From the NCBI GenBank assembly GCA_036395815.1, contig DASWCX010000229.1, positions 1-30,766 of the forward strand: 30,766 bases of DNA, read 5' to 3'. The DNA comes from Actinomycetota bacterium. Lineage in GTDB: Bacteria; Actinomycetota; UBA4738. Both the position numbers and the translations under genes were made by a program. Below, piece by piece: positions 22,255-28,962 of this stretch. The notes below the pieces were generated by a model. That model had not been told where the DNA came from. It did not search any database and saw only the letters and a list, made by a program, of their open reading frames with translations. Positions within the stretch are counted from its first letter, which is position 1; each line of letters opens with the position of its first letter.

Positions 22255-24438
22255 TCAGGGCCCCAGCCTGGCCTCCACACAGCAGACCCCGTCCACCTGG
22301 ACCGGGGTGATCCCGGCCTCGGCGTCGGCGTTCGGGATCTGGATGCTCGCGCTCTGCTTGCGGGCGAAGGTGAACGCCGACAGGCTCTCCAGGAGCGACC
22401 CGTCGGCAGGGTTCCCCACGAGCGTTCGTGGCACCACGATCTCCCAGTAGTCGAACCCCGGACCGTGCTTCAAGGTGGCCGACACGGCGGTTCCGCCGTT
22501 CCCGGGGCCTCCGTAATCGACCACGTGCGGGTCGCAGGCCGAGACGGAGCACAGGTCGATCGAGGTCGCCGTGCCGGCGAAGGCCTGGGTGACCCCGCCG
22601 GGCAGCGCCTCGACCGCGGCGTAGTAGATGGGGTTCTCCAGCCCCTGCACGGGATCATCGACGGACTGCCCGATCCACCGGACCACGAAGTCGACGGCCC
22701 CCGCGCCGGTGGCGGTCAGGGCGTGGCCCAGGTCGGCCAGCGAGGAGGTCCCGAGGTCGATCACCACATTGGCCCCGGACGAGCGGACCCGAACCACCCT
22801 GATGTCGAGCTCCGGCACGTTGTCGGGACCGTAGACGGGGTCGAACAGCGCGTCGCCCGAGGGGTCCTTCATCGCGGTGCCGGTGGCGGGCGGCCCGGTC
22901 ACCTTCGTTCCGAACATGCTGATGCCGCGGTTCTGCTTCACCAGCATGACGGCGGGGGCGCCCGGATGATCCAGTGTCTGGACCGGCGGAGGGGCGTCGG
23001 CCTGGAGGAGCTGGTTCGAGGTGTCGTTGTAGACGATCTCGAGCGCACCGGTCGCCGGGTCGACGCCGTCCTGGAAGAAGTCGGCCATGTTGCGGTTGCC
23101 CTGCACCGCGATGCAGCCCGTCCCCTCCAGGCAGATGGTGCCGTAGTGGTTCGGATGCCGGGTGACCTGGATCTGGTGCAGGGACGGAGCCGACGTGTCG
23201 GCGCCGGTGATCACGTTGGCGTAGACGAACCACGGCTGGTGGGCGTCGGTCTGGCTCGGATCGTCGGTGGCGTCGGCCGTGCCGTAGTACACGATGGCGA
23301 TGCGACCGGCGGCGCCCGCCGTGATCCAGGGCATGACGTTCGCCGCGGCCGGCCCCGAGCTGATCTTCAGGGGCGTCGACCACTGGGTCCATCCGGTGGC
23401 CGCGGACGCGTGCGAGTACCAGATCTGCCAGTAGTCGGGGTCCTCGCTGGCCGAATGGCCGGAGGCTCTGGTCACCCACGTCACGTAGGCGTTCCGGGCC
23501 GAATCCATGGCGATCACGGGGAACAGGCCGCGGGCGTCGGTCTCCGCCGGAAGGGTGGCGATGGGGATCGTCTGCGACTTCGTGAGGGCGGGATCGCCGG
23601 GGTTCCCCGGGTCGCGCGAGTAGAGGATGAGGCCGATGTCAGAGAGGCCGGTGAGCCCGGCTGCCTCAAGCACGTCGCCGGTCTGTTGGTCGACGGCGAT
23701 GTTCCCATCGAGCCCGATGGGGACGCTCTCGGTGGGTCCCGTGTAGTTCAGGCCGTCGGTCGAGTAGGCCGCCCCCTCGCCGGTGCCGGCCACCTCCAGG
23801 TAGATCAGGTAGTTCACGGGCAGCGGGCCCGTGTAGTTGGACGGACGGGCCGCCGGATCCCATGTGGCAAACCATTGCCGGTCGATGCCGTTGTTGTCCG
23901 GATCGCTGCTGGTGTAGACGCCCTGGCCCATGGTCTTGGTGGCGTCGTCCCACGTGGCCGTCTTCAGGGCCTCCAGCGCGGCCAGGTCCGCGTAGTAGAC
24001 GGTGCCGGTGTTTCCCAGGCCGTGGTCGTCGATTGACAGCTCCGTGTCCCCGCCTCCCACGCACTGCGCCGCGGGGACCGGGCACGGGATCTGGCTGTCG
24101 GACTGGGCCGCGGTAGTGATCGGCGGGTTGTGGAGGGGCCGGAACGTGCGGCCGCCGTCCGCCGAGATGTTCCAGATGCTGCGCTGCGTGCCGGTGCCCC
24201 AGGGGCCACTGGCGTACACTCGGCCGTCGTCGGCGCTGATCCTCACGTCGGGCTCTCCGTACGCGTGCACCGGATCCACCACCGCGGGGCTGGAGAAGCC
24301 GATGCCGCTGGTGGCGAGGGCGTGCCGGGCGATAGCTCCGGCCCGGGGGGCCCCGGTCAGCCCCAGGGTGAGGATGGCCGCCGCGGCCGCGACCCCGGCC
24401 CGCCTGATACGTGGCTTCCCGTTCGACCGACCATCCAC
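22255..24438 (-). CDS. Large secreted protein with BNR/Asp-box (sialidase-like propeller) motifs
   Basis: AAGGAGG RBS then GTG at 24438, followed by a basic-then-hydrophobic signal peptide. Contains GEPDVRI, Asp-box SADGGRTF, GGGDTEL, YSTDG and AAGRIAIVYYG. Substrate unknown. Confidence 0.7.
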   Translation of the reverse strand: MDGRSNGKPRIRRAGVAAAAAILTLGLTGAPRAGAIARHALATSGIGFSSPAVVDPVHAYGEPDVRISADDGRVYASGPWGTGTQRSIWNISADGGRTFRPLHNPPITTAAQSDSQIPCPVPAAQCVGGGDTELSIDDHGLGNTGTVYYADLAALEALKTATWDDATKTMGQGVYTSSDPDNNGIDRQWFATWDPAARPSNYTGPLPVNYLIYLEVAGTGEGAAYSTDGLNYTGPTESVPIGLDGNIAVDQQTGDVLEAAGLTGLSDIGLILYSRDPGNPGDPALTKSQTIPIATLPAETDARGLFPVIAMDSARNAYVTWVTRASGHSASEDPDYWQIWYSHASAATGWTQWSTPLKISSGPAAANVMPWITAGAAGRIAIVYYGTADATDDPSQTDAHQPWFVYANVITGADTSAPSLHQIQVTRHPNHYGTICLEGTGCIAVQGNRNMADFFQDGVDPATGALEIVYNDTSNQLLQADAPPPVQTLDHPGAPAVMLVKQNRGISMFGTKVTGPPATGTAMKDPSGDALFDPVYGPDNVPELDIRVVRVRSSGANVVIDLGTSSLADLGHALTATGAGAVDFVVRWIGQSVDDPVQGLENPIYYAAVEALPGGVTQAFAGTATSIDLCSVSACDPHVVDYGGPGNGGTAVSATLKHGPGFDYWEIVVPRTLVGNPADGSLLESLSAFTFARKQSASIQIPNADAEAGITPVQVDGVCCVEARLGP

Positions 24439-24510
24439 GACGTTCCCTCCTTCATGAGCGCAGGCGTCGATACGCGTGGTTCCCCGGACCGGAGGCCCAG
24501 TGGCCGGCAC

Positions 24511-24540
24511 ATGATGTACTAGTCCGAGATAACTAGTCAA
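24511..24540 (-). promoter_or_regulatory. Putative sigma-A-type promoter of the secreted BNR gene, with two ACTAGT cores
   Basis: Minus strand TTGACT (24540-24535)-N18-CATCAT (24516-24511). ACTAGT occurs at 24518-24523 and 24532-24537. Confidence 0.5.
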
Positions 24541-24545
24541 ACCGA
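24538..24545 (+). repeat. 8-bp target site duplication, left copy (CAAACCGA)
   Basis: Identical to 27364-27371; both copies directly abut the inverted repeats. Confidence 0.95.
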
Positions 24546-24575
24546 GGGAAGTATCAAACACGAGCACGTACGTGC
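24546..24575 (+). repeat. Right terminal inverted repeat (IRR)
   Basis: GGGAAGTATCAA-ACACGAG-CACGTACGTGC; 22/30 identical to IRL in two conserved blocks. Confidence 0.92.
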
Positions 24576-24578
24576 TCG
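24555..24578 (-). terminator. Perfect 18-bp palindrome with U-rich tail on the minus strand, probable intrinsic terminator inside the IS right end
   Basis: CGAGCACGTACGTGCTCG (24561-24578), followed on the minus strand by TGTTTG. Confidence 0.55.
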
Positions 24579-24595
24579 ATAACTAGTCAGGCCGG
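24578..24595 (+). repeat. Internal 18-nt near-copy of the insertion-site flank (24528-24545)
   Basis: GATAACTAGTCAGGCCGG versus GATAACTAGTCAAACCGA: 15/18 identical, first 12 nt perfect. Confidence 0.9.
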
Positions 24596-24638
24596 TTTCA
24601 CACCGGGTCGAGCAGCAGAGGGTTCTCGCGGCCTGGTC

Positions 24639-24872
24639 TCAGGGGACCCTTTGACCTCGACGAGTCACCGTGCGCTGGTGAATCACCTCTGCATCCGGAG
24701 CCCAGCGAATGACCTGGCGCACGTCTTGCTCGCACTCAGCTGGGCTGCTGAAGCTGTTGACCGACTCGGCTACGGGGTCGTGCTCGTCCCGAAAGAGCAC
24801 CCAGCGCCAGGGGAACAGGTCGTCGAGGGTCTTCCCCTTCCAGTAGACGTAGAAGAACGGGTCTTCGGCCAT
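24639..24872 (-). CDS. YegP/DUF1508-like small protein (IS passenger)
   Basis: GGGAGGTGA RBS then ATG at 24872. FYVY...WRWVL...VAESVNSFSSPAECEQDV..V...APDA resembles the DUF1508 pattern; recognised by eye only. Confidence 0.6.
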   Translation of the reverse strand: MAEDPFFYVYWKGKTLDDLFPWRWVLFRDEHDPVAESVNSFSSPAECEQDVRQVIRWAPDAEVIHQRTVTRRGQRVP

Positions 24873-24938
24873 CGTCCTCACCTCCCGCACCCGATTGAAA
24901 CACACGCGTCACGCTGGCCCGTTTGCCAAGCCAGGAGG

Positions 24939-25088
24939 TCAGTCCTTCGGGCCCGTTGGAGGGTTCCGCCTGCTACCGCGCCAGCCCTTCGACTCCCGCT
25001 CGAACTCGATCATCCGGGCGTAGTCCCGAACCGTCCACTTGAAGCGTGGGGACCAGTGCCGGTACTTCCGCGTGTACCGCTTTCGCAT
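24939..25088 (-). CDS. 49-aa Arg/Lys- and aromatic-rich peptide (IS passenger)
   Basis: GAGGAGG RBS at 25094-25100. Sequence MRKRYTRKYRHWSPRFKWTVRDYARMIEFERESKGWRGSRRNPPTGPKD. Below the ORF-track size cutoff. Confidence 0.6.
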   Translation of the reverse strand: MRKRYTRKYRHWSPRFKWTVRDYARMIEFERESKGWRGSRRNPPTGPKD

Positions 25089-25130
25089 GGCGACCTCCTC
25101 GGCCCGGGCTCGTCCCGGATAGGAGGTGCC
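25089..25130 (-). promoter_or_regulatory. Hairpin sequestering the SD of the 49-aa ORF
   Basis: 5'-GGCACCUCCU-AU-CCGGG-ACGAG-CCCGG-GCCG-AGGAGGUCGCC-AUG: 10-bp outer stem with one bulge plus a 5-bp inner stem. Confidence 0.65.
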
Positions 25131-25201
25131 AGGAGGGATAGCGGCTCGTCACGGCTCCTGAGCCTACCCGAAAGGGGGCGAGGCTAGGTGCTGCGTGTCT
25201 C

Positions 25202-26032
25202 TCAGCCCCCGAATTTCCAGAGAATCTTTTTGATCTCAGTGGCCATATCCTGCAAGGTAGGGATGACGGCGGTTCCAACATCTTGGAACCCTACCGTCGG
25301 GGTGAACTGAGCGTGCATAGCCACCTCGTCGTAGCTGACATCCGCAGGCAAAGGAGAGCGAAGGATGAACGTTACGAGGTGTGCGTTCGCTTTCAGCGGT
25401 TCACGCGGAGTCCCCATAGGGACGGTGCTTTCAACGACGCCCGGCGATGTGCGATAGCTGCCCGGCCGCAGAATGGTGACGAGCACGGTCCGGTGTTTGT
25501 CGACGCGCAGAAGCGTTTTGAGCACCATGAGCGGGCCGGGGGGGATCGGCAGGTTGAGATAGAGCCGATTCCGGAAGAACCAGCTTTGCTGCCGACTCTT
25601 GTACGGCTGGAATGGCGAGAGCATCAAGAGGCGATGCTTGGAGACGCCCGGCAGCTCCCTCCGCCGCACATTCGCCAGGAAATCTTTTCGGGTCGTTGCG
25701 TAGAGGGGGAAGTAGATGGCTCGCAGCTGCTTCTCGTTGAGCTGTCGTTTGGAGGGCACCAACTCCCAGGCCAGATGATCAAGAGCGGCCCCGAAGTTGG
25801 TGAGCACGTCACCAATGAGCAGGCTCCATTCTCGCTTGATCGGCTTGACGTGGGTGGAGAAGAGTTCGAGCCGGTCTGGGTGCGTTTTGAGTTCGTACCT
25901 ACGACCGAGGGCGGGCACACCATCGGGGCCACCGTTGGCCCACGAGGTTATGTCTCCTTCGAGTTCTTTCAGATGGTGTTCGGCCCGCCCCAGCTTCGCT
26001 CTACTGCTGGACAGGTCAAGGCGGTGACTCAT
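25202..26032 (-). CDS. Uncharacterised protein, possibly HEPN-like (IS passenger)
   Basis: 276 aa with SRAKLGRAEHHL, WSLLIGDVLTNFGAALDHLAWEL, IYFP, PFQPY and LRVDKHR. The HEPN assignment is inferred from the DKHR motif and helical layout. Confidence 0.75.
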   Translation of the reverse strand: MSHRLDLSSSRAKLGRAEHHLKELEGDITSWANGGPDGVPALGRRYELKTHPDRLELFSTHVKPIKREWSLLIGDVLTNFGAALDHLAWELVPSKRQLNEKQLRAIYFPLYATTRKDFLANVRRRELPGVSKHRLLMLSPFQPYKSRQQSWFFRNRLYLNLPIPPGPLMVLKTLLRVDKHRTVLVTILRPGSYRTSPGVVESTVPMGTPREPLKANAHLVTFILRSPLPADVSYDEVAMHAQFTPTVGFQDVGTAVIPTLQDMATEIKKILWKFGG

Positions 26033-26053
26033 GGCGCGTAGACTGGAGGCACG

Positions 26054-26200
26054 ATGCCAAAGCGAAACGGGAAGCGGTCACTCGTCCGCGAGGGCGAGCC
26101 GAGCCAGCGCACGAAGCAAGGGCTCGAAATCCCCATCGTCAAGACCGAGGACTTCGACCGGCTGCTACGCAAGGCTGCTAGGAAGCGTCGGGCGAAGTAG
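26054..26200 (+). CDS. 48-aa basic small protein (IS passenger, opposite strand to the transposase)
   Basis: GGAGG RBS at 26045-26049. Sequence MPKRNGKRSLVREGEPSQRTKQGLEIPIVKTEDFDRLLRKAARKRRAK. Below the ORF-track cutoff. Confidence 0.65.
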   Translation: MPKRNGKRSLVREGEPSQRTKQGLEIPIVKTEDFDRLLRKAARKRRAK

Positions 26201-26378
26201 TCGAGCTTCGACGGACTCGCCTGGCTTTCCACACGATAAGCCCACCGATGAGCAAGACAACGAGGCGCAACGCGATCGCCCACCAGGGCAAGGCTCGCAC
26301 GAACGTCAGGACAACCAGCCCGGCTACGGACAGCCAGAAGGCGCCTTCCGCCCACGGGGGAATCGGCCGCAGCCTCAT
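26178..26378 (-). CDS. 66-aa two-TM small membrane protein (IS passenger)
   Basis: ATG immediately follows the transposase TAG. Two hydrophobic helices followed by a basic tail (KARRVRR). Confidence 0.55.
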   Translation of the reverse strand: MRLRPIPPWAEGAFWLSVAGLVVLTFVRALPWWAIALRLVVLLIGGLIVWKARRVRRSSTTSPDAS

Positions 26379-27314
26379 CTATGCCTTCGCGATCCGATGC
26401 AGGAACGCGTTGAACATCCCACCGGGCTCGTCCCGATGGTTGTACCGGAAGGCATACTCGTCCAAGTAGGACTGAAGATGCTTGGTCGAGACCGAGTGGT
26501 ACGTCCCACGGATGCCACTCTTGAGCAGCGACCAGAAGCCCTCGATGGTGTTCACGTGGACATCCCCATCCACGTAGATCGCCTGCGAGTGGTTCACCCG
26601 CTGGTGCTCGTAGCCCTGGCCCTTGAGCGCGTTGTACGCGTTCCCCTCGTCCGTGTAGACGGTGGACGCGGGCAGCACCTTGGTCTTGATGTGCGGCAGC
26701 ACGGACGAAGTGCTGGCCGCTGGGATCGCCTTCGCCACGACCTTGCCGGACTTCCCGTTAGCTCCGCGCTGGGCCATCCCGAACACCGGGGTCTTGGACG
26801 AGAACGCGGTGTCGTGGCCGCGCTTGGCAGCGTGCTTCCACTTGTTCGCCCCGCCGATGTAAGCCTCGTCGGCTTCGATGGTTCCATCGAGCATCGGGTC
26901 GCCTTGGTCGAGCAGCGACCGGATCTGCCGGAACATCCGAAGTGCCGTCGGGTAGGACACCCCGACCTCGCGCTCCAATTGCTTCGCGGAGATTCCGCAC
27001 CGAGTGCTCGCCATCAAGAACATCCCGTAGAACCAGAGCTTGAGCGAGGTGGACGACCCCTCGAAGATGGTGCCCTTCATCGGGTACTCGTGCCGTCCGC
27101 AGAACTGGCACGCGTAGGCGGGGCGTTTGGCGAGCCGGTGGTGCTTCGTCACCTTCCCGCACTTGGGGCAGAAGATGCCGTCCGGGTAGAGCATCCCGAC
27201 AAGCTCGTCCAAGCAGGCGGCGTCGTTCGGGAAGCGAGCCTCGAAGTCGAACACAGTGGTCGTCGCGTCCGAAGACTTCGCGTTCTTCGGCTGGTTCCGG
27301 TCTGTCTTGCCCAT
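26379..27314 (-). CDS. IS1595-family DDE transposase
   Basis: N-terminal Zn ribbon CPKC...CQFC, HTH region GISAKQLEREVGVSYPTA, and catalytic motifs IEADEAYIGG, VYTDE, VNHS, HVNTIEGFWSLLK, YLDEYAFRYN. Start placed at ATG 27314 on the basis of the promoter. Confidence 0.96.
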   Translation of the reverse strand: MGKTDRNQPKNAKSSDATTTVFDFEARFPNDAACLDELVGMLYPDGIFCPKCGKVTKHHRLAKRPAYACQFCGRHEYPMKGTIFEGSSTSLKLWFYGMFLMASTRCGISAKQLEREVGVSYPTALRMFRQIRSLLDQGDPMLDGTIEADEAYIGGANKWKHAAKRGHDTAFSSKTPVFGMAQRGANGKSGKVVAKAIPAASTSSVLPHIKTKVLPASTVYTDEGNAYNALKGQGYEHQRVNHSQAIYVDGDVHVNTIEGFWSLLKSGIRGTYHSVSTKHLQSYLDEYAFRYNHRDEPGGMFNAFLHRIAKA

Positions 27315-27320
27315 AGAGGT

Positions 27321-27350
27321 AGTATAAGCCGACGCAAGTACGTGTGTCAA
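27321..27350 (-). promoter_or_regulatory. Near-consensus transposase promoter giving a leaderless mRNA
   Basis: TTGACA (27350-27345)-N18-TATACT (27326-27321)-6 nt-ATG. The -35 lies inside IRL. Confidence 0.8.
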
Positions 27351-27363
27351 CTTGATACTTCCC
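27334..27363 (-). repeat. Left terminal inverted repeat (IRL)
   Basis: Minus strand GGGAAGTATCAA-GTTGACA-CACGTACTTGC. Confidence 0.92.
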
Positions 27364-27371
27364 CAAACCGA
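27364..27371 (+). repeat. 8-bp target site duplication, right copy (CAAACCGA)
   Basis: Identical to 24538-24545. Confidence 0.95.
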
Positions 27372-27380
27372 GCCAGGCAG

Positions 27381-28139
27381 CTACTGCGCCTCGCGGCCGT
27401 GGACGGTGGGCCTCGTGGGCTGGCCCTCCGCTCCGTCCTTCCCTCCGAGGATCTCCACGATGGACTCGATCACCTGCTCGGGGCTGTCGCAGATGCGGAA
27501 GAGCTCCAGATCCTTCGGGGCGACCGTCCCCTGGGCCAGAACCGGCGAGTGGAGCCAGTCGAGGAGGCCGGCCCAGTACGCCGACCCGTACAAGATGACC
27601 GGGAAGTGCTGGACCTTGCCGGTCTGGATCAGGGTGAGGGACTCGAACAGCTCGTCGAGGGTGCCGAACCCGCCCGGGAACACCACGAACCCCTCCGCGT
27701 ACTTGACGAACATCGTCTTGCGCACGAAGAAGTAGTTGAAGTCGAGCAGCAGGTTCAGGTACGGGTTGGCCACCTGTTCGAACGGCAGCTCGATGTTGCA
27801 CCCGATGGAGAAGCCGCCCCCTTCCTGACAGCCCCGGTTGGCGGCCTCCATGACCCCGGGGCCTCCCCCGGTGATGACGGCGAACCCGGCCTCGGCCAGC
27901 TGCCGCCCCACGGTCCGGGCCGTCTCGTACATCGGATCGTCCCGGCCGATCCTGGCCGAGCCGAACAGGCTGATGGCGGGCGGGATGGCCGCCAGCTGGG
28001 TGAAGCCGTCCACGAACTCGGACAGGATCCTGAGCGCTCGCCAGGGGTCGGTGCCGACGAAGGTGTTGTCGCGGCGTTCGAGCAGCGCCCGGTCGGCGTT
28101 CGCCTGCTCCCTGCGGCCCCTGCGAGCGGAGTGGGTCAC
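27381..28139 (-). CDS. LOG-family (TIGR00730-like) nucleotide phosphoribohydrolase
   Basis: DPWRALRILSEF, ISLFGSAR, ITGGGPGVMEAANRG, FFVRKTMF and PGGFGTLDEL. GATAAT -10-like box 6 nt before GTG 28139; the start could be up to 28172. Confidence 0.92.
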   Translation of the reverse strand: MTHSARRGRREQANADRALLERRDNTFVGTDPWRALRILSEFVDGFTQLAAIPPAISLFGSARIGRDDPMYETARTVGRQLAEAGFAVITGGGPGVMEAANRGCQEGGGFSIGCNIELPFEQVANPYLNLLLDFNYFFVRKTMFVKYAEGFVVFPGGFGTLDELFESLTLIQTGKVQHFPVILYGSAYWAGLLDWLHSPVLAQGTVAPKDLELFRICDSPEQVIESIVEILGGKDGAEGQPTRPTVHGREAQ

Positions 28140-28146
28140 GGGTGCA

Positions 28147-28962
28147 TTATCTGCCGGAGCCCGAGCGCCCATCCGGCCGAAGGCTGCGGGTCACGCTCGC
28201 CACTCTGGCGCGGGCCCGGAACCCCAGGCCCTCGTACAGCCGCGCGGGCCCTCCTCGTTCCGCCGTCAGCAGGTGGACGACGCCGTCCCCGTTCGCCAGG
28301 CTCTCCCGCACCGCGCGCCCGGTGGTGGCCGAGGCCACCCCTCGCCGCCGGAACCGGGGGAGGGTAACCACGTTGTCCACGTAGCCCACCCCGGCCAGGG
28401 AGATCAACGAGGCGAACCCGGCCAGCTCGCCCTCCGCGTACCCGGCGAAGATCTGGAGGCCGGCCGGGACCAGGACATCACGGTCCCGGCGCACCAGGGC
28501 GCGGATCATGGTGTCGTCCATGGACCCGCCGAACTCGCTCCGGGACGAGGTGTAGATGTTCCAGAACCGCGCCCCCGGGCGGCGGAGGTGGCGGACCCGC
28601 ACCACAGGACCGCTGGATTCCGGCAGGCGAGCGGCATCGCCCTCGAACACCATGACGGAGTCGACCCCGGAATGGTCGGCCTCCGCCATCATCGCTCGGA
28701 GGACTGGGCAACGGGCCGGCGGGTCCCAGAACTCGACGTGCTCGTACAGGGCTCGAGCCCGGTGAAGGACGGGCAGGAGCGAGCCGCGGATGTCGTCGGG
28801 GGTGAGGGTCCGGTGATCGGAGAAGACCGCGGCGTGGTTCGACTCCCACACCGCCGGGAACCGGGGATCGGCCACCACGACGCCCCAGGGCGTGGGATCG
28901 CACACCGGGTTGAGGGCTCCCCACGCGGACCAGAAGGAACGGAGTGGCTCGAGCAGAGTCAT
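28147..28962 (-). CDS. GNAT-family N-acetyltransferase
   Basis: C-terminal GYVDNVVTLPRFRRRGVAS acetyl-CoA motif A and ARLYEGLGF motif B. Confidence 0.85.
   Translation of the reverse strand: MTLLEPLRSFWSAWGALNPVCDPTPWGVVVADPRFPAVWESNHAAVFSDHRTLTPDDIRGSLLPVLHRARALYEHVEFWDPPARCPVLRAMMAEADHSGVDSVMVFEGDAARLPESSGPVVRVRHLRRPGARFWNIYTSSRSEFGGSMDDTMIRALVRRDRDVLVPAGLQIFAGYAEGELAGFASLISLAGVGYVDNVVTLPRFRRRGVASATTGRAVRESLANGDGVVHLLTAERGGPARLYEGLGFRARARVASVTRSLRPDGRSGSGR

What the first reader, a model, noticed from the sequence alone, without database searches (positions are those of the whole stretch)
24528..24595. The IS1595 element carries an internal copy of its own target site: candidate sequence-guided transposition
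Seen: the 18 host bases ending exactly at the insertion junction (24528-24545, GATAACTAGTCAAACCGA = 10 flanking nt plus the 8-nt TSD) recur inside the element at 24578-24595 (GATAACTAGTCAGGCCGG). The first 12 nt are identical, and all three differences are A to G, which would still pair as G-T wobbles with the target bottom strand. Similarity stops at the junction and does not extend upstream. The copy directly follows a perfect 18-bp palindrome in the IR and is followed by a second small hairpin (CCGGT-TTCAC-ACCGG, 24592-24606). The two TSD copies are identical while the internal copy has diverged, which suggests the element held this sequence before it inserted here. Known: IS200/IS605 use element-encoded DNA guides near terminal hairpins and IS110 uses bridge RNAs; I know of no such mechanism for IS1595 DDE transposases. 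Inference: a DNA or RNA guide next to the right end may direct target choice. Alternatives: both copies are binding sites for one protein (the core TAACTAGTCA is a near-palindrome, possibly a host operator or transposase-preferred site), or a local duplication or conversion event.
Basis: partly seen in the sequence, partly recalled or inferred. Interest (0 to 1): 0.85.

Follow-up and report, generated by a model that had tools for sequence, protein, structure and literature searches.

The report
Site-specific IS1595 element with target-like box
A cargo-carrying jumping gene of the IS1595 family always lands in one orientation, exactly 5 bases upstream of a rare host promoter motif (TTGACTAG), and carries a conserved copy of that motif's ACTAGT core just inside its right end. 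This looks like a shared protein-binding box rather than a programmable DNA or RNA guide.

Summary
GATAACTAGTCA occurs at 24528 and 24578, on either side of the right tip (24546) of a 2,818-bp IS1595-family element with a perfect 8-bp duplication (CAAACCGA).

The guide reading is not supported. In six related elements from other metagenomes and loci, only the palindromic core ACTAGT(C) is shared between the inside and the flank. The surrounding bases do not covary, and the extended box is flipped in one relative. One relative has no internal box, yet it sits at a degenerate site in the same register.

What the relatives do show is strict site and orientation specificity. Seven of seven elements have CT(A/G)G.C starting 13 bp outside the right tip, so the target is N5-TTG|ACTAG. 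Five of the seven targets look like promoters of the type -35 TTGACT / second ACTAG box / -10. One of these cases was predicted from a tree before it was fetched. A related genome has the same promoter without the element. The host motif, two ACTAG boxes 14 bp apart, recurs in this genome and in its family.

The best reading is that one box-reading protein, either the transposase or a host factor, binds both the subterminal box and the target. The precedent is IHF sites in IS1 ends and in its hot spot. This scan had already noted promoter- or operator-specific IS1595 cargo elements on other DNA. The new point here is the shared box.

The parts
24546..27363 (-). Complete IS1595-family cargo element, 2,818 bp. 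The transposase and cargo genes read on the minus strand, towards the right end at 24546.
   Evidence: Tips GGGAAGTATC at both ends. Perfect 8-bp duplication. Transposase domains found. Single copy in the 2.48-Mb MAG.
26379..27314 (-). Transposase, 311 aa, with an N-terminal zinc ribbon and a DDE domain.
   Evidence: Pfam DDE_Tnp_IS1595 at 5e-45 and Zn_ribbon_IS1595 at 7e-9. Thousands of homologues, the closest at 98-70% identity in soil metagenomes.
27314..27363 (-). Left inverted repeat (IRL). It holds a promoter-like TTGACA (27350-27345), an 18-nt spacer and TATACT (27326-27321), around a GTAC-centred near-palindrome. The ATG at 27314 follows the -10 by 6 nt, which fits a leaderless mRNA. 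There is no ACTAGT box.
   Evidence: Sequence reading. The same layout is seen in relatives.
24546..24595 (+).
   Evidence: The box is invariant at 37-42/38-43 nt from the tip in the window, L018, L020 and L078, while the neighbouring columns vary.
24561..24578 (-). The IRR palindrome doubles as a terminator-like hairpin (7-bp stem, GTAC loop, then TGTTTGAT) at the end of the cargo operon.
   Evidence: One search found this as the only terminator-like site in 24350-24950. The fold has z -2.5.
24592..24606 (.). Small hairpin CCGGT-TTCAC-ACCGG.
   Evidence: Present in the window. Not conserved in L018, L020 or L078.
24538..24545 (.). Target-site duplication, IRR-side copy (CAAACCGA). On the minus strand it ends in TTG, which is the start of the host -35 hexamer.
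   Evidence: The duplication ends in TTG in 9 of 10 related ends.
27364..27371 (.). Target-site duplication, IRL-side copy (CAAACCGA).
24511..24540 (-). Host promoter-like site TTGACT - 18 nt - CATCAT, upstream of the 727-aa gene. It contains the two host ACTAGT boxes (24532-24537 and 24518-24523), which start 14 bp apart.
   Evidence: One search found this as the only promoter-like hit, against 0.0 in shuffles. Boxes. The orthologous promoter without an insertion in G002 (L063) reads TTGACTAGTTAACTCTTCCTAGTGATACT.
24528..24545 (+). It is native host DNA: the proximal box, the start of the -35 hexamer and the duplicated 8 bp.
   Evidence: empty site. The alignment shows invariant flank columns C, T, G, C of CTAGTC.
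22255..24441 (-). Host gene downstream of the target: a secreted ~727-aa protein. Its paralogue on contig C7 has BNR repeats.
   Evidence: Orthologues lie downstream of the same box promoter in L018 and G002.
26055..26201 (+). Conserved 48-aa very basic ORF, antisense to the transposase gene and just downstream of it. Function unknown. It is a candidate accessory factor.
   Evidence: Homologues of 48-63 aa occur in all seven elements compared. The DNA is conserved in L015 and in family genomes. No Pfam family matches.
24639..26032 (-). Variable cargo: a 276-aa protein (25202-26032) and small ORFs, including a weak DUF1508-like ORF (24639-24905).
   Evidence: The cargo differs in L018 and L020 (MerR/DUF433 plus a 146-aa protein). 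It is distantly similar, at 27-30%, in L055, L078 and L021.

Best explanation
The element is a cargo-carrying IS1595-family insertion sequence from a clade that inserts at one kind of site and in one orientation. The 8-bp staggered cut is placed so that the duplication is N5-TTG, and the right end (IRR) comes to lie directly before ACTAG. That is the upstream edge of a rare host promoter type: -35 TTGACT(AG), a second ACTAG box 14 bp further on, then a -10. This much is shown. The 'internal copy of the target' is a conserved 6-8-bp palindromic box, (G)ACTAGT(C), that forms the innermost conserved block of the IRR, 37-42 nt from the tip, next to the GTAC-centred palindrome that both ends share. 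The inferred mechanism is that one sequence-specific DNA-binding protein reads the box both in the IRR and in the target. The candidates are the transposase's N-terminal zinc-ribbon/HTH module, the conserved 48-aa basic protein, or a host ACTAG-box regulator. Only the IRR carries the box, so the IRR-bound side of the transpososome is tethered to, or preferentially captures, box-containing DNA. That fixes both the distance and the orientation. The 12-of-12 and 15-of-18 identity in this copy is the shared core plus family-typical neighbours and two lineage-specific matches. It comes from chance or local conversion, not from a programmed guide.
For: Site specificity. In the alignment of flank plus IRR from seven elements, the host flank has invariant C, T, G, C of CTAGTC in a fixed register, 13-8 nt outside the tip (raw ends). 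The duplications differ between elements and are perfect within each. CTAG has a frequency of 2.6e-4 per position in this genome, so the pattern cannot be chance.

Independence of the insertions. L020, L055 and L078 lie between unrelated genes. The window and L018 hit the orthologous promoter. Their transposases are 83% identical, while the adjacent host proteins are 53% identical and the other flank differs: a LOG-family gene in the window and a GlnR-like regulator in L018.

Prediction test. The ACTAG-type elements form one clade in the transposase tree. P0022 was picked from that clade before its DNA was seen, and it showed tip|CCGAATTG|ACTAGATACTTCAGACTAG together with an internal ACTAGT.

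The flank is host DNA. The empty orthologous site in G002 has the boxes and no element. CTAG pairs 14 bp apart occur 5 times in this genome against about 0.17 expected. This spacing is also the modal one in family genomes without the element, 18 of 75 listed sites, p about 1e-5.

Promoter nature of the target. One search supports it for the window. Hexamers read by eye support it in L018, G002, L055 and L078.

Box under constraint. ACTAGT is invariant in four IRRs whose transposases are only 69-83% identical and whose neighbouring columns differ.

Precedent. IHF binds the ends of IS1 and its major pBR322 hot spot, which holds several sites (Gamas 1987 and Prentki 1987, as cited in PMC11043490).
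Against: No binding was tested, and the structure job with DNA was not folded. L054 has no internal box but sits at a degenerate site (TTGGCCAG) in the same register. L021 and L055 have only degenerate internal boxes (CACTCGTC, GGACTACC) beside TCTAG and ACTAG targets. So the internal box may not be needed for target choice. The four elements with a perfect box are related, so its presence is partly shared ancestry. The orientation bias (all 7 IRR-proximal) could in part reflect selection after insertion, because the element's genes then read in the same direction as the downstream host gene. L079 has an ACTAGT 45-50 nt inside its left end, so the asymmetry is not universal. Only seven ends with flanks could be recovered.
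Confidence: 0.55

Rival explanations
1. The internal box has nothing to do with target choice. The transposase-target complex alone recognises N5-TTG|ACTAG. The ACTAGT in the IRR would then be a host-factor or regulatory site with another role, such as transpososome architecture, control of the cargo operon or its terminator, or the diverged counterpart of the IRL -10 region. Alternatively it is simply inherited.
For: L054 lacks the box but uses the same register, and L021 and L055 have degenerate boxes. The box sits where the IRL has its -10 (TATACT), about one base out of register (sequence reading). It lies directly upstream of the terminator-like palindrome. The box-bearing elements are a single clade.
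Against: ACTAGT occurs about once per 180 kb in this genome. An unrelated origin for the same rare hexamer as both the innermost conserved IRR block and the core of the target would be a striking coincidence. An asymmetric target also needs some asymmetry between the two ends, and the box is the obvious one.
Confidence: 0.3
2. One reading: a DNA or RNA guide next to the right end base-pairs with the target and directs insertion, and it could be reprogrammed.
For: In this copy, 12 of 12 and 15 of 18 positions match and the differences would allow G-T wobble. The shared core is present in every box-bearing relative. Guides as short as 4-5 nt are known in IS200/IS605 (own knowledge).
Against: There is no covariation outside the 6-8-bp palindromic core in L018, L020, L055 or L078. 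The extended box is inverted in L078. The internal GG is ancestral. The neighbouring hairpin is not conserved. No Rfam family matches. No promoter-like site drives a transcript over 24560-24640 other than cargo read-through into a terminator-like hairpin. The enzyme is a DDE transposase that makes 8-bp duplications, a chemistry that acts on double-stranded targets. The target is the same in all relatives, so nothing shows programmability.
Confidence: 0.07
3. A local duplication or gene conversion between the flank and the element, specific to this copy, made the similarity.
For: The two copies are only 50 bp apart. Two positions (G at -5 and A at -2 relative to CTAG) match the flank here but differ in L018 and L020.
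Against: The box is at the same IRR position in relatives at unrelated loci, so it predates this insertion. TAACTAGTC also occurs in L078. Conversion can explain two extra matches at most.
Confidence: 0.03

Closest known systems
[quoted passage not shown] 1987 J Mol Biol 195:261; Prentki et al. 1987 EMBO J 6:2479; cited in PMC11043490)
   Same: The same protein-binding motif occurs inside the element's ends and, in several copies, at the preferred target. It is a DDE element that makes a target duplication.
   Different: IS1 hot spots are regional, not exact to the base pair or fixed in orientation. IHF sites lie in both IS1 ends. Here the box is in the IRR only in most elements, and its binder is unknown. 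Actinobacteria lack classical IHF (own knowledge).
Tn7 insertion at attTn7 through TnsD
   Same: Insertion at a fixed distance from a recognised sequence that stays intact, always with the same end proximal.
   Different: Tn7 uses a dedicated selector protein and an ATPase. No such genes are recognisable here. The target is a small recurrent promoter motif, not one essential gene's end. Tn7 carries no copy of the attTn7 sequence in its end.
IS30, IS911 and IS21 insertion next to sequences that resemble their own inverted repeats (own knowledge)
   Same: The target resembles part of the element's own end, which implies that the end-binding protein also reads the target.
   Different: Those elements target whole IR-like sequences. 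Here only a 6-8-bp subterminal box is shared, and the tip and the palindrome are not.
IS200/IS605 (subterminal DNA guides) and IS110/IS1111 (bridge or seek RNAs)
   Same: The element carries an internal sequence related to its target near one end.
   Different: Those use HUH or DEDD/serine chemistry without 8-bp duplications, and their guides covary with their targets. Here the enzyme is a DDE transposase, there is an 8-bp duplication, no covariation is seen, and the core is palindromic.
Passenger-carrying ('transporter') IS1595-family elements
   Same: Zinc-ribbon DDE transposase, 8-bp duplication, cargo between the transposase gene and the IRR, and swappable cargo.
   Different: I found no published report of base-pair-exact, orientation-specific targeting or of a target-like box in the IRR. 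Earlier notes of this scan report promoter or operator targeting in other IS1595 lineages.

Membership tests
IS1595 family of insertion sequences | DDE transposase of the IS1595/ISXO2 type | tested here: met
   PF12762 at 5.3e-45 over the full profile.
IS1595 family of insertion sequences | N-terminal zinc ribbon | tested here: met
   PF12760 at 7e-9, residues 29-75.
IS1595 family of insertion sequences | Terminal inverted repeats and an 8-bp target-site duplication | tested here: met
   GGGAAGTATCAA at both tips and CAAACCGA on both sides. Relatives also have 8-bp duplications.
IS1595 family of insertion sequences | Subgroup assignment (ISNwi1, ISSod11, etc.) by end consensus and ISfinder comparison | not testable with these tools
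   No ISfinder library was available. Any resemblance of the tip to subgroup consensus ends is from memory only.
Guide-directed transposons (IS200/IS605 DNA guides; IS110/IS1111 bridge or seek RNA) | HUH or DEDD/serine-type recombinase | tested here: not met
   The only transposase is a DDE enzyme.
Guide-directed transposons (IS200/IS605 DNA guides; IS110/IS1111 bridge or seek RNA) | The internal guide covaries with each element's own target | tested here: not met
   Only the fixed core ACTAGT(C) is shared in five elements, and the extended box is inverted in L078.
Guide-directed transposons (IS200/IS605 DNA guides; IS110/IS1111 bridge or seek RNA) | Conserved structured non-coding RNA or subterminal hairpin holding the guide | tested here: not met
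   No Rfam match. The 24592-24606 hairpin is absent from relatives. The conserved palindrome is shared by both ends and does not hold the box.
Site- and orientation-specific transposons that read a flanking attachment sequence (Tn7/TnsD type) | Fixed distance and fixed orientation relative to an intact recognised sequence | tested here: met
   CTAG starts 13 nt from the IRR tip in 6 of 7 elements (CTGG in the seventh). All seven are IRR-proximal.
Site- and orientation-specific transposons that read a flanking attachment sequence (Tn7/TnsD type) | Dedicated target-selector protein encoded by the element | tested here: inconclusive
   No TnsD/TniQ-like or other DNA-binding family was found in the cargo. 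A conserved 48-aa basic ORF of unknown function is present in all seven elements.
Elements with one host-factor site in both end and hot spot (IS1/IHF type) | The same motif inside an end and at the preferred target | tested here: met
   ACTAGT lies 37-42 nt inside the IRR, and ACTAG boxes lie at the target.
Elements with one host-factor site in both end and hot spot (IS1/IHF type) | Demonstrated binding of one protein to both | not testable with these tools
   The complex job with DNA was not folded. No TrpR-family gene was found in the 81%-complete genome.

The most novel reading that the evidence does not exclude
The IRR box is the address label. A bridging factor, either a multimeric box-binding protein or (less likely) a nucleic acid, physically pairs the element-borne ACTAGT box with the target's ACTAG boxes. 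Swapping the box would then retarget the element, giving a simple matching-site targeting module in a DDE transposon. Related IS1595 clades, which sit at other promoter or operator motifs, would each carry their own label.
Probability: 0.2. Interest if true: 0.8.

Novelty: new variant of a known kind. Interest (0 to 1): 0.55.

Why it matters
DDE insertion sequences are usually described as having weak target preferences. Here a clade of IS1595-family cargo elements shows insertion that is exact to the base pair and fixed in orientation, at the upstream edge of a specific promoter type. The promoter is left intact. Related elements with different cargo sit at the orthologous promoter in hosts whose flanking proteins are only about 53% identical, so the site works as a reusable docking place for cargo. 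The rare hexamer shared between the right end and the target gives a concrete, cheap hypothesis about how a DDE transposase reaches an asymmetric target. It also suggests a natural small system for directed insertion. In addition it points to an uncharacterised ACTAG-box promoter or operator class in soil Actinomycetota. The programmable-guide idea that made the finding look exceptional does not hold up.

Tried and rejected
- Other copies in the own genome: none.
- DNA search of the family's genomes: only distant transposase fragments.
- Genome contigs and metagenome-contig scans: the same locus again (L011), one truncated 96% relative (L015) and distant relatives. L015 is rearranged and its right end could not be defined.
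- Class- and phylum-wide protein searches: relatives of 70% identity or less, with other tips and other targets.
- Three look-ups returned no DNA because the sample files were too large.
- Plasmid and viral collections: nothing close.
- Reads and contigs of four soil runs confirmed both junctions but showed no empty-site joint. One variant contig in X4 leaves the window's flank at 24533 and 27373. I could not read its sequence, so I do not count it as an independent site.
- Complex prediction with the transposase N-terminus plus target DNA was not folded and counts neither for nor against binding.
- A TrpR-type regulator, whose E. coli operator also has ACTAGT (own knowledge), was not found in the genome.
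- My first pattern search used the wrong spacer (N9 instead of N10) and is void.
- I considered whether the host site is a decayed IS end, because L018 and G002 have CATACTCCC / GATACTGCC after the second box, which resembles the tip GATACTTCCC. I rejected this as the main reading. The boxes lie in promoter geometry upstream of host genes and recur in genomes without the element. It is still not excluded for individual sites.
- I considered a second subgroup (L041, L046, L049, L021), where the internal motif ATGAGCCGC resembles ATGAGCGTC in two targets. A 6-mer match is expected by chance at that search depth, so I make no claim.

Full report
**What is there.** The window holds a complete 2,818-bp IS1595-family element at 24546-27363.
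- The tips read GGGAAGTATC on both strands.
- An identical 8-bp duplication, CAAACCGA, flanks the element at 24538-24545 and 27364-27371.
- The 311-aa transposase (26379-27314, minus strand) has the IS1595 zinc ribbon and DDE domain.
- All cargo reads in the same direction as the transposase, towards the end at 24546, so that end is the right end (IRR).
- The genome is a soil MAG of 2.48 Mb in 451 contigs, 70% G+C, with one copy of the element.
- Both junctions are bridged by contigs from independent soil runs, and a second public contig is 99.9% identical over the whole locus.

**The observation.**
- GATAACTAGTCA occurs at 24528 and 24578 and nowhere else in the window.
- It is the only exact 12-mer repeated within 100 bp in the window.
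- Such close repeats occur about once per 10 kb in this genome, so the pair alone is only moderately unusual.
- What makes it stand out is composition. ACTAGT occurs 14 times in the whole genome, and three of those lie within 70 bp here.
- The 18-nt palindrome and the small hairpin are also present.

**Relatives.** The protein search found thousands of homologues, the closest at 98-70% identity in soil metagenomes. I could define ends and flanks for six close relatives. Written in transposase orientation as IRR tip | duplication | flank, the seven sites are:

| Element | Transposase identity | Duplication | Flank |
|---|---|---|---|
| window | - | TCGGTTTG | ACTAGTTATCTCGGACTAGTAC |
| L018 | 83% | CGCGTTTG | ACTAGTTCGCTCTAACTAGTTC |
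| L020 | 79% | GCCCGAAG | ACTAGATATTTCGAACTAGGGTACGGTTACTAGG |
| L055 | 72% | CGCAATTG | ACTAGATAGATCGG |
| L078 | 70% | CCGAATTG | ACTAGATACTTCAGACTAGATAAG |
| L021 | 74% | TGGGATTG | TCTAGCCC |
| L054 | 72% | CAAACTTG | GCCAGCC |

- In the alignment of flank plus IRR, four columns of the host flank are invariant: C, T, G and C of CTAGTC, 13-8 nt outside the tip. That is as conserved as the tip itself.
- The five bases next to the tip vary and always match the other copy of the duplication.
- Where only the left end is visible (L019, and two ends in L079), the duplication again ends in TTG.
- The target is therefore N5-TTG|ACTAG, and it is always next to the IRR.

**Independence of the insertions.**
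- L020, L055 and L078 lie between unrelated genes.
- The window and L018 sit before orthologous ~700-aa genes. Their transposases are 83% identical, while the host proteins are only 53% identical.
- Their other flank differs: a LOG-family gene in the window and a GlnR-like regulator in L018.
- Their cargo also differs, and each has its own perfect duplication.
- These are separate hits on the same promoter in distantly related hosts.
- The ACTAG-type elements form one clade in a transposase tree. I chose P0022 and P0029 from that clade before seeing their DNA. P0022 (L078) showed the predicted register, boxes and internal ACTAGT. P0029 (L079) showed a TTG-ended duplication at the one end that is visible.
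- More distant relatives (56-70% identity) have other tips and other targets.

**The flank is host DNA and a recurrent host motif.**
- In G002, from the same family, the orthologous intergenic region reads GGGTTTGACTAGTTAACTCTTCCTAGTGATACT and has no element.
- In the window the flank is the only promoter-like site in the region: TTGACT, 18 nt, CATCAT at 24540-24511 on the minus strand, 70 nt before the 727-aa gene.
- By eye, L018 (TTGACT-18-CATACT), G002 (TTGACT-17-GATACT), L055 (TTGACT-17-TAGCCT) and L078 (TTGACT-17-TAAGAT) have the same layout. Each has a co-directional gene downstream. L020 is the exception.
- CTAG pairs starting 14 bp apart occur five times in this genome against about 0.17 expected, with the common form CTAGTC-N8-CTAGTCA. 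A sixth, variant site precedes a paralogue of the 727-aa gene.
- The same spacing is the mode among CTAG pairs in family genomes that lack the element, 18 of 75 listed sites, p about 1e-5.
- So the element targets a pre-existing host regulatory motif and leaves it intact, because the duplication restores TTG.

**The internal copy.** Reading from the right tip inwards, the IRRs are:

| Element | IRR, tip inwards |
|---|---|
| window | ...GTGCTCGATAACTAGTCAGG |
| L018 | ...GAGCACAAATGACTAGTCAGG |
| L020 | ...GTGCTCAATGACTAGTCCGG |
| L078 | ...GTGCTCAGGGACTAGTTAGC |

- ACTAGT is invariant at 37-42 (38-43 in L018), while the columns on either side vary. After it the sequences become unalignable.
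- L055 has GGACTACC there, twice. L021 has CACTCGTC. L054 has nothing similar.
- The left ends lack the box, except L079, which has ACTAGT at 45-50.
- Instead the left ends carry the transposase promoter (TTGACA-18-TATACT in the window) around a GTAC-centred palindrome that both ends share. That palindrome is the likely transposase-binding site.
- In the IRR the palindrome also looks like the terminator of the cargo operon.

**Testing the guide idea.** If the 18-mer were a guide, the bases around the core should follow each element's own flank. They do not.
- Outside CTAGTC, self-comparisons (window 6/9 after the core, L018 5/9, L020 3/9, L078 3/8) are no better than cross-comparisons (3-5/9). 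This is read from the sequences.
- The window's extra identity comes down to family-typical A-T-A positions plus two lineage-specific matches.
- In L078 the extended box (TAACTAGTCC) points the other way, as expected for a palindromic protein site and not for a directional guide.
- The 'A to G' positions are G in the relatives too.
- The small hairpin is not conserved, Rfam finds nothing, and the enzyme is a DDE transposase that makes 8-bp duplications.
- I put a nucleic-acid guide at about 7%.

**Most likely mechanism.**
- Shown: exact, asymmetric, orientation-specific targeting of TTG|ACTAG, and a conserved ACTAGT box confined (mostly) to the IRR.
- Inferred: one box-reading protein binds both. 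An asymmetric target can only orient a transpososome whose two ends differ, and the box is the clearest difference.
- The candidates are the transposase's N-terminal module, the 48-aa basic protein conserved in all seven elements, or a host ACTAG-box regulator.
- The precedent is IHF, which binds IS1's ends and its main hot spot, itself a cluster of sites (Gamas 1987 and Prentki 1987, via PMC11043490).
- The main rival, at about 30%, is that the transposase alone reads the target and the IRR box serves another purpose. L054 and the degenerate boxes of L021 and L055 speak for this rival.
- Selection after insertion could add to the orientation bias.

**Comparison with what is known.**
- The element meets the tested criteria of the IS1595 family.
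- It fails the defining features of guide-directed families.
- In outcome it works like Tn7 at attTn7. In having the same site in the end and in the target, it works like IS1/IHF or the IR-targeting ISs.
- I found no paper on sequence-specific targeting in IS1595 elements.
- Earlier notes of this scan (unchecked AI notes) describe other IS1595 cargo elements that sit at fixed promoter or operator positions: e1-2743695, e1-4011633 and e1-3958925. Promoter targeting has therefore been seen by this scan on other DNA. The shared box in the end and the target is the new element here.

**Limits.**
- Seven ends with flanks, all from metagenomes.
- No binding or transposition data.
- The structure job with DNA was not folded.
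G016 only contributed to an overall tally that I did not use.

Noticed in passing
window 26055-26201 (+): A 48-aa, very basic ORF lies antisense to the transposase gene and just downstream of it. Homologues of 48-63 aa are present in all seven related elements, including those with different cargo. There is no Pfam match. It may be an accessory factor of this IS clade.
   Followed up: partly
window 27314-27363 (-): The left inverted repeat contains a full promoter, TTGACA-18-TATACT. The transposase ATG starts about 7 nt after the -10, so the mRNA is probably leaderless. A GTAC-centred palindrome sits between the hexamers, which suggests autoregulation by the transposase. The same layout is seen in distant relatives.
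   Followed up: partly
G000 contigs C146:48, C303:2193, C413:2817, C414:9507, C7:1622-1643 (loci L073-L077): The host motif CTAGTC-N8-CTAGTCA (CTAG pairs 14 bp apart) recurs upstream of unrelated genes: a BNR-repeat paralogue, GMC oxidoreductase/ABC transporter, a methyltransferase and a galactose-oxidase-like protein. It is also enriched in family genomes. This is probably an uncharacterised promoter or operator class. No TrpR-family gene was found.
   Followed up: partly
L046 (G034:C7), left-end flank: The right tip of another related element lies exactly 8 bp from this element's left tip, and it shares the duplication: GATAGTTCCC|CTACGACT|GGGAACTATC, with CTACGACT again after the IRR. This is the structure expected if two elements insert one after the other at a target that each insertion regenerates. 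Two loci with two IS1595 transposase genes in the same orientation (and L079) fit the same idea.
   Followed up: no
L041 (G259:C52) and L049 (G092:C86); also L080, L081: Two 60-63% relatives in different genera are inserted 30 bp apart in the same conserved operator-like sequence, CGATAC-N11-GTATCG...GACGCTCAT. The sequence lies upstream of a short cysteine-rich ORF. This suggests that other clades of this family also aim at specific regulatory regions.
   Followed up: partly
window 24533 and 27373, run X4: A soil run holds a 98.6%-identical variant of the element. Its contigs leave the window's flank 13 nt outside the IRR and 2 nt beyond the other duplication (records 18 and 21). This is either a diverged strain at the same site or a second site with the same 13 bases. 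The contig sequence could not be read.
   Followed up: no
L015 (Ga0137373_10030648) 1-1700: A transposase fragment 96% identical to the window's is followed by different DNA: an IRL-like tip pointing outwards at 1064 and a tRNA-like stretch near 1480-1555. This is probably a nested or rearranged element.
   Followed up: partly
window 27384-28172 (-): The gene on the other side of the element is a LOG-family (Lysine_decarbox/SLOG) protein. In L018 and G002 that position holds a GlnR-like response regulator. The neighbourhood of the box promoter has therefore been rearranged between hosts.
   Followed up: no
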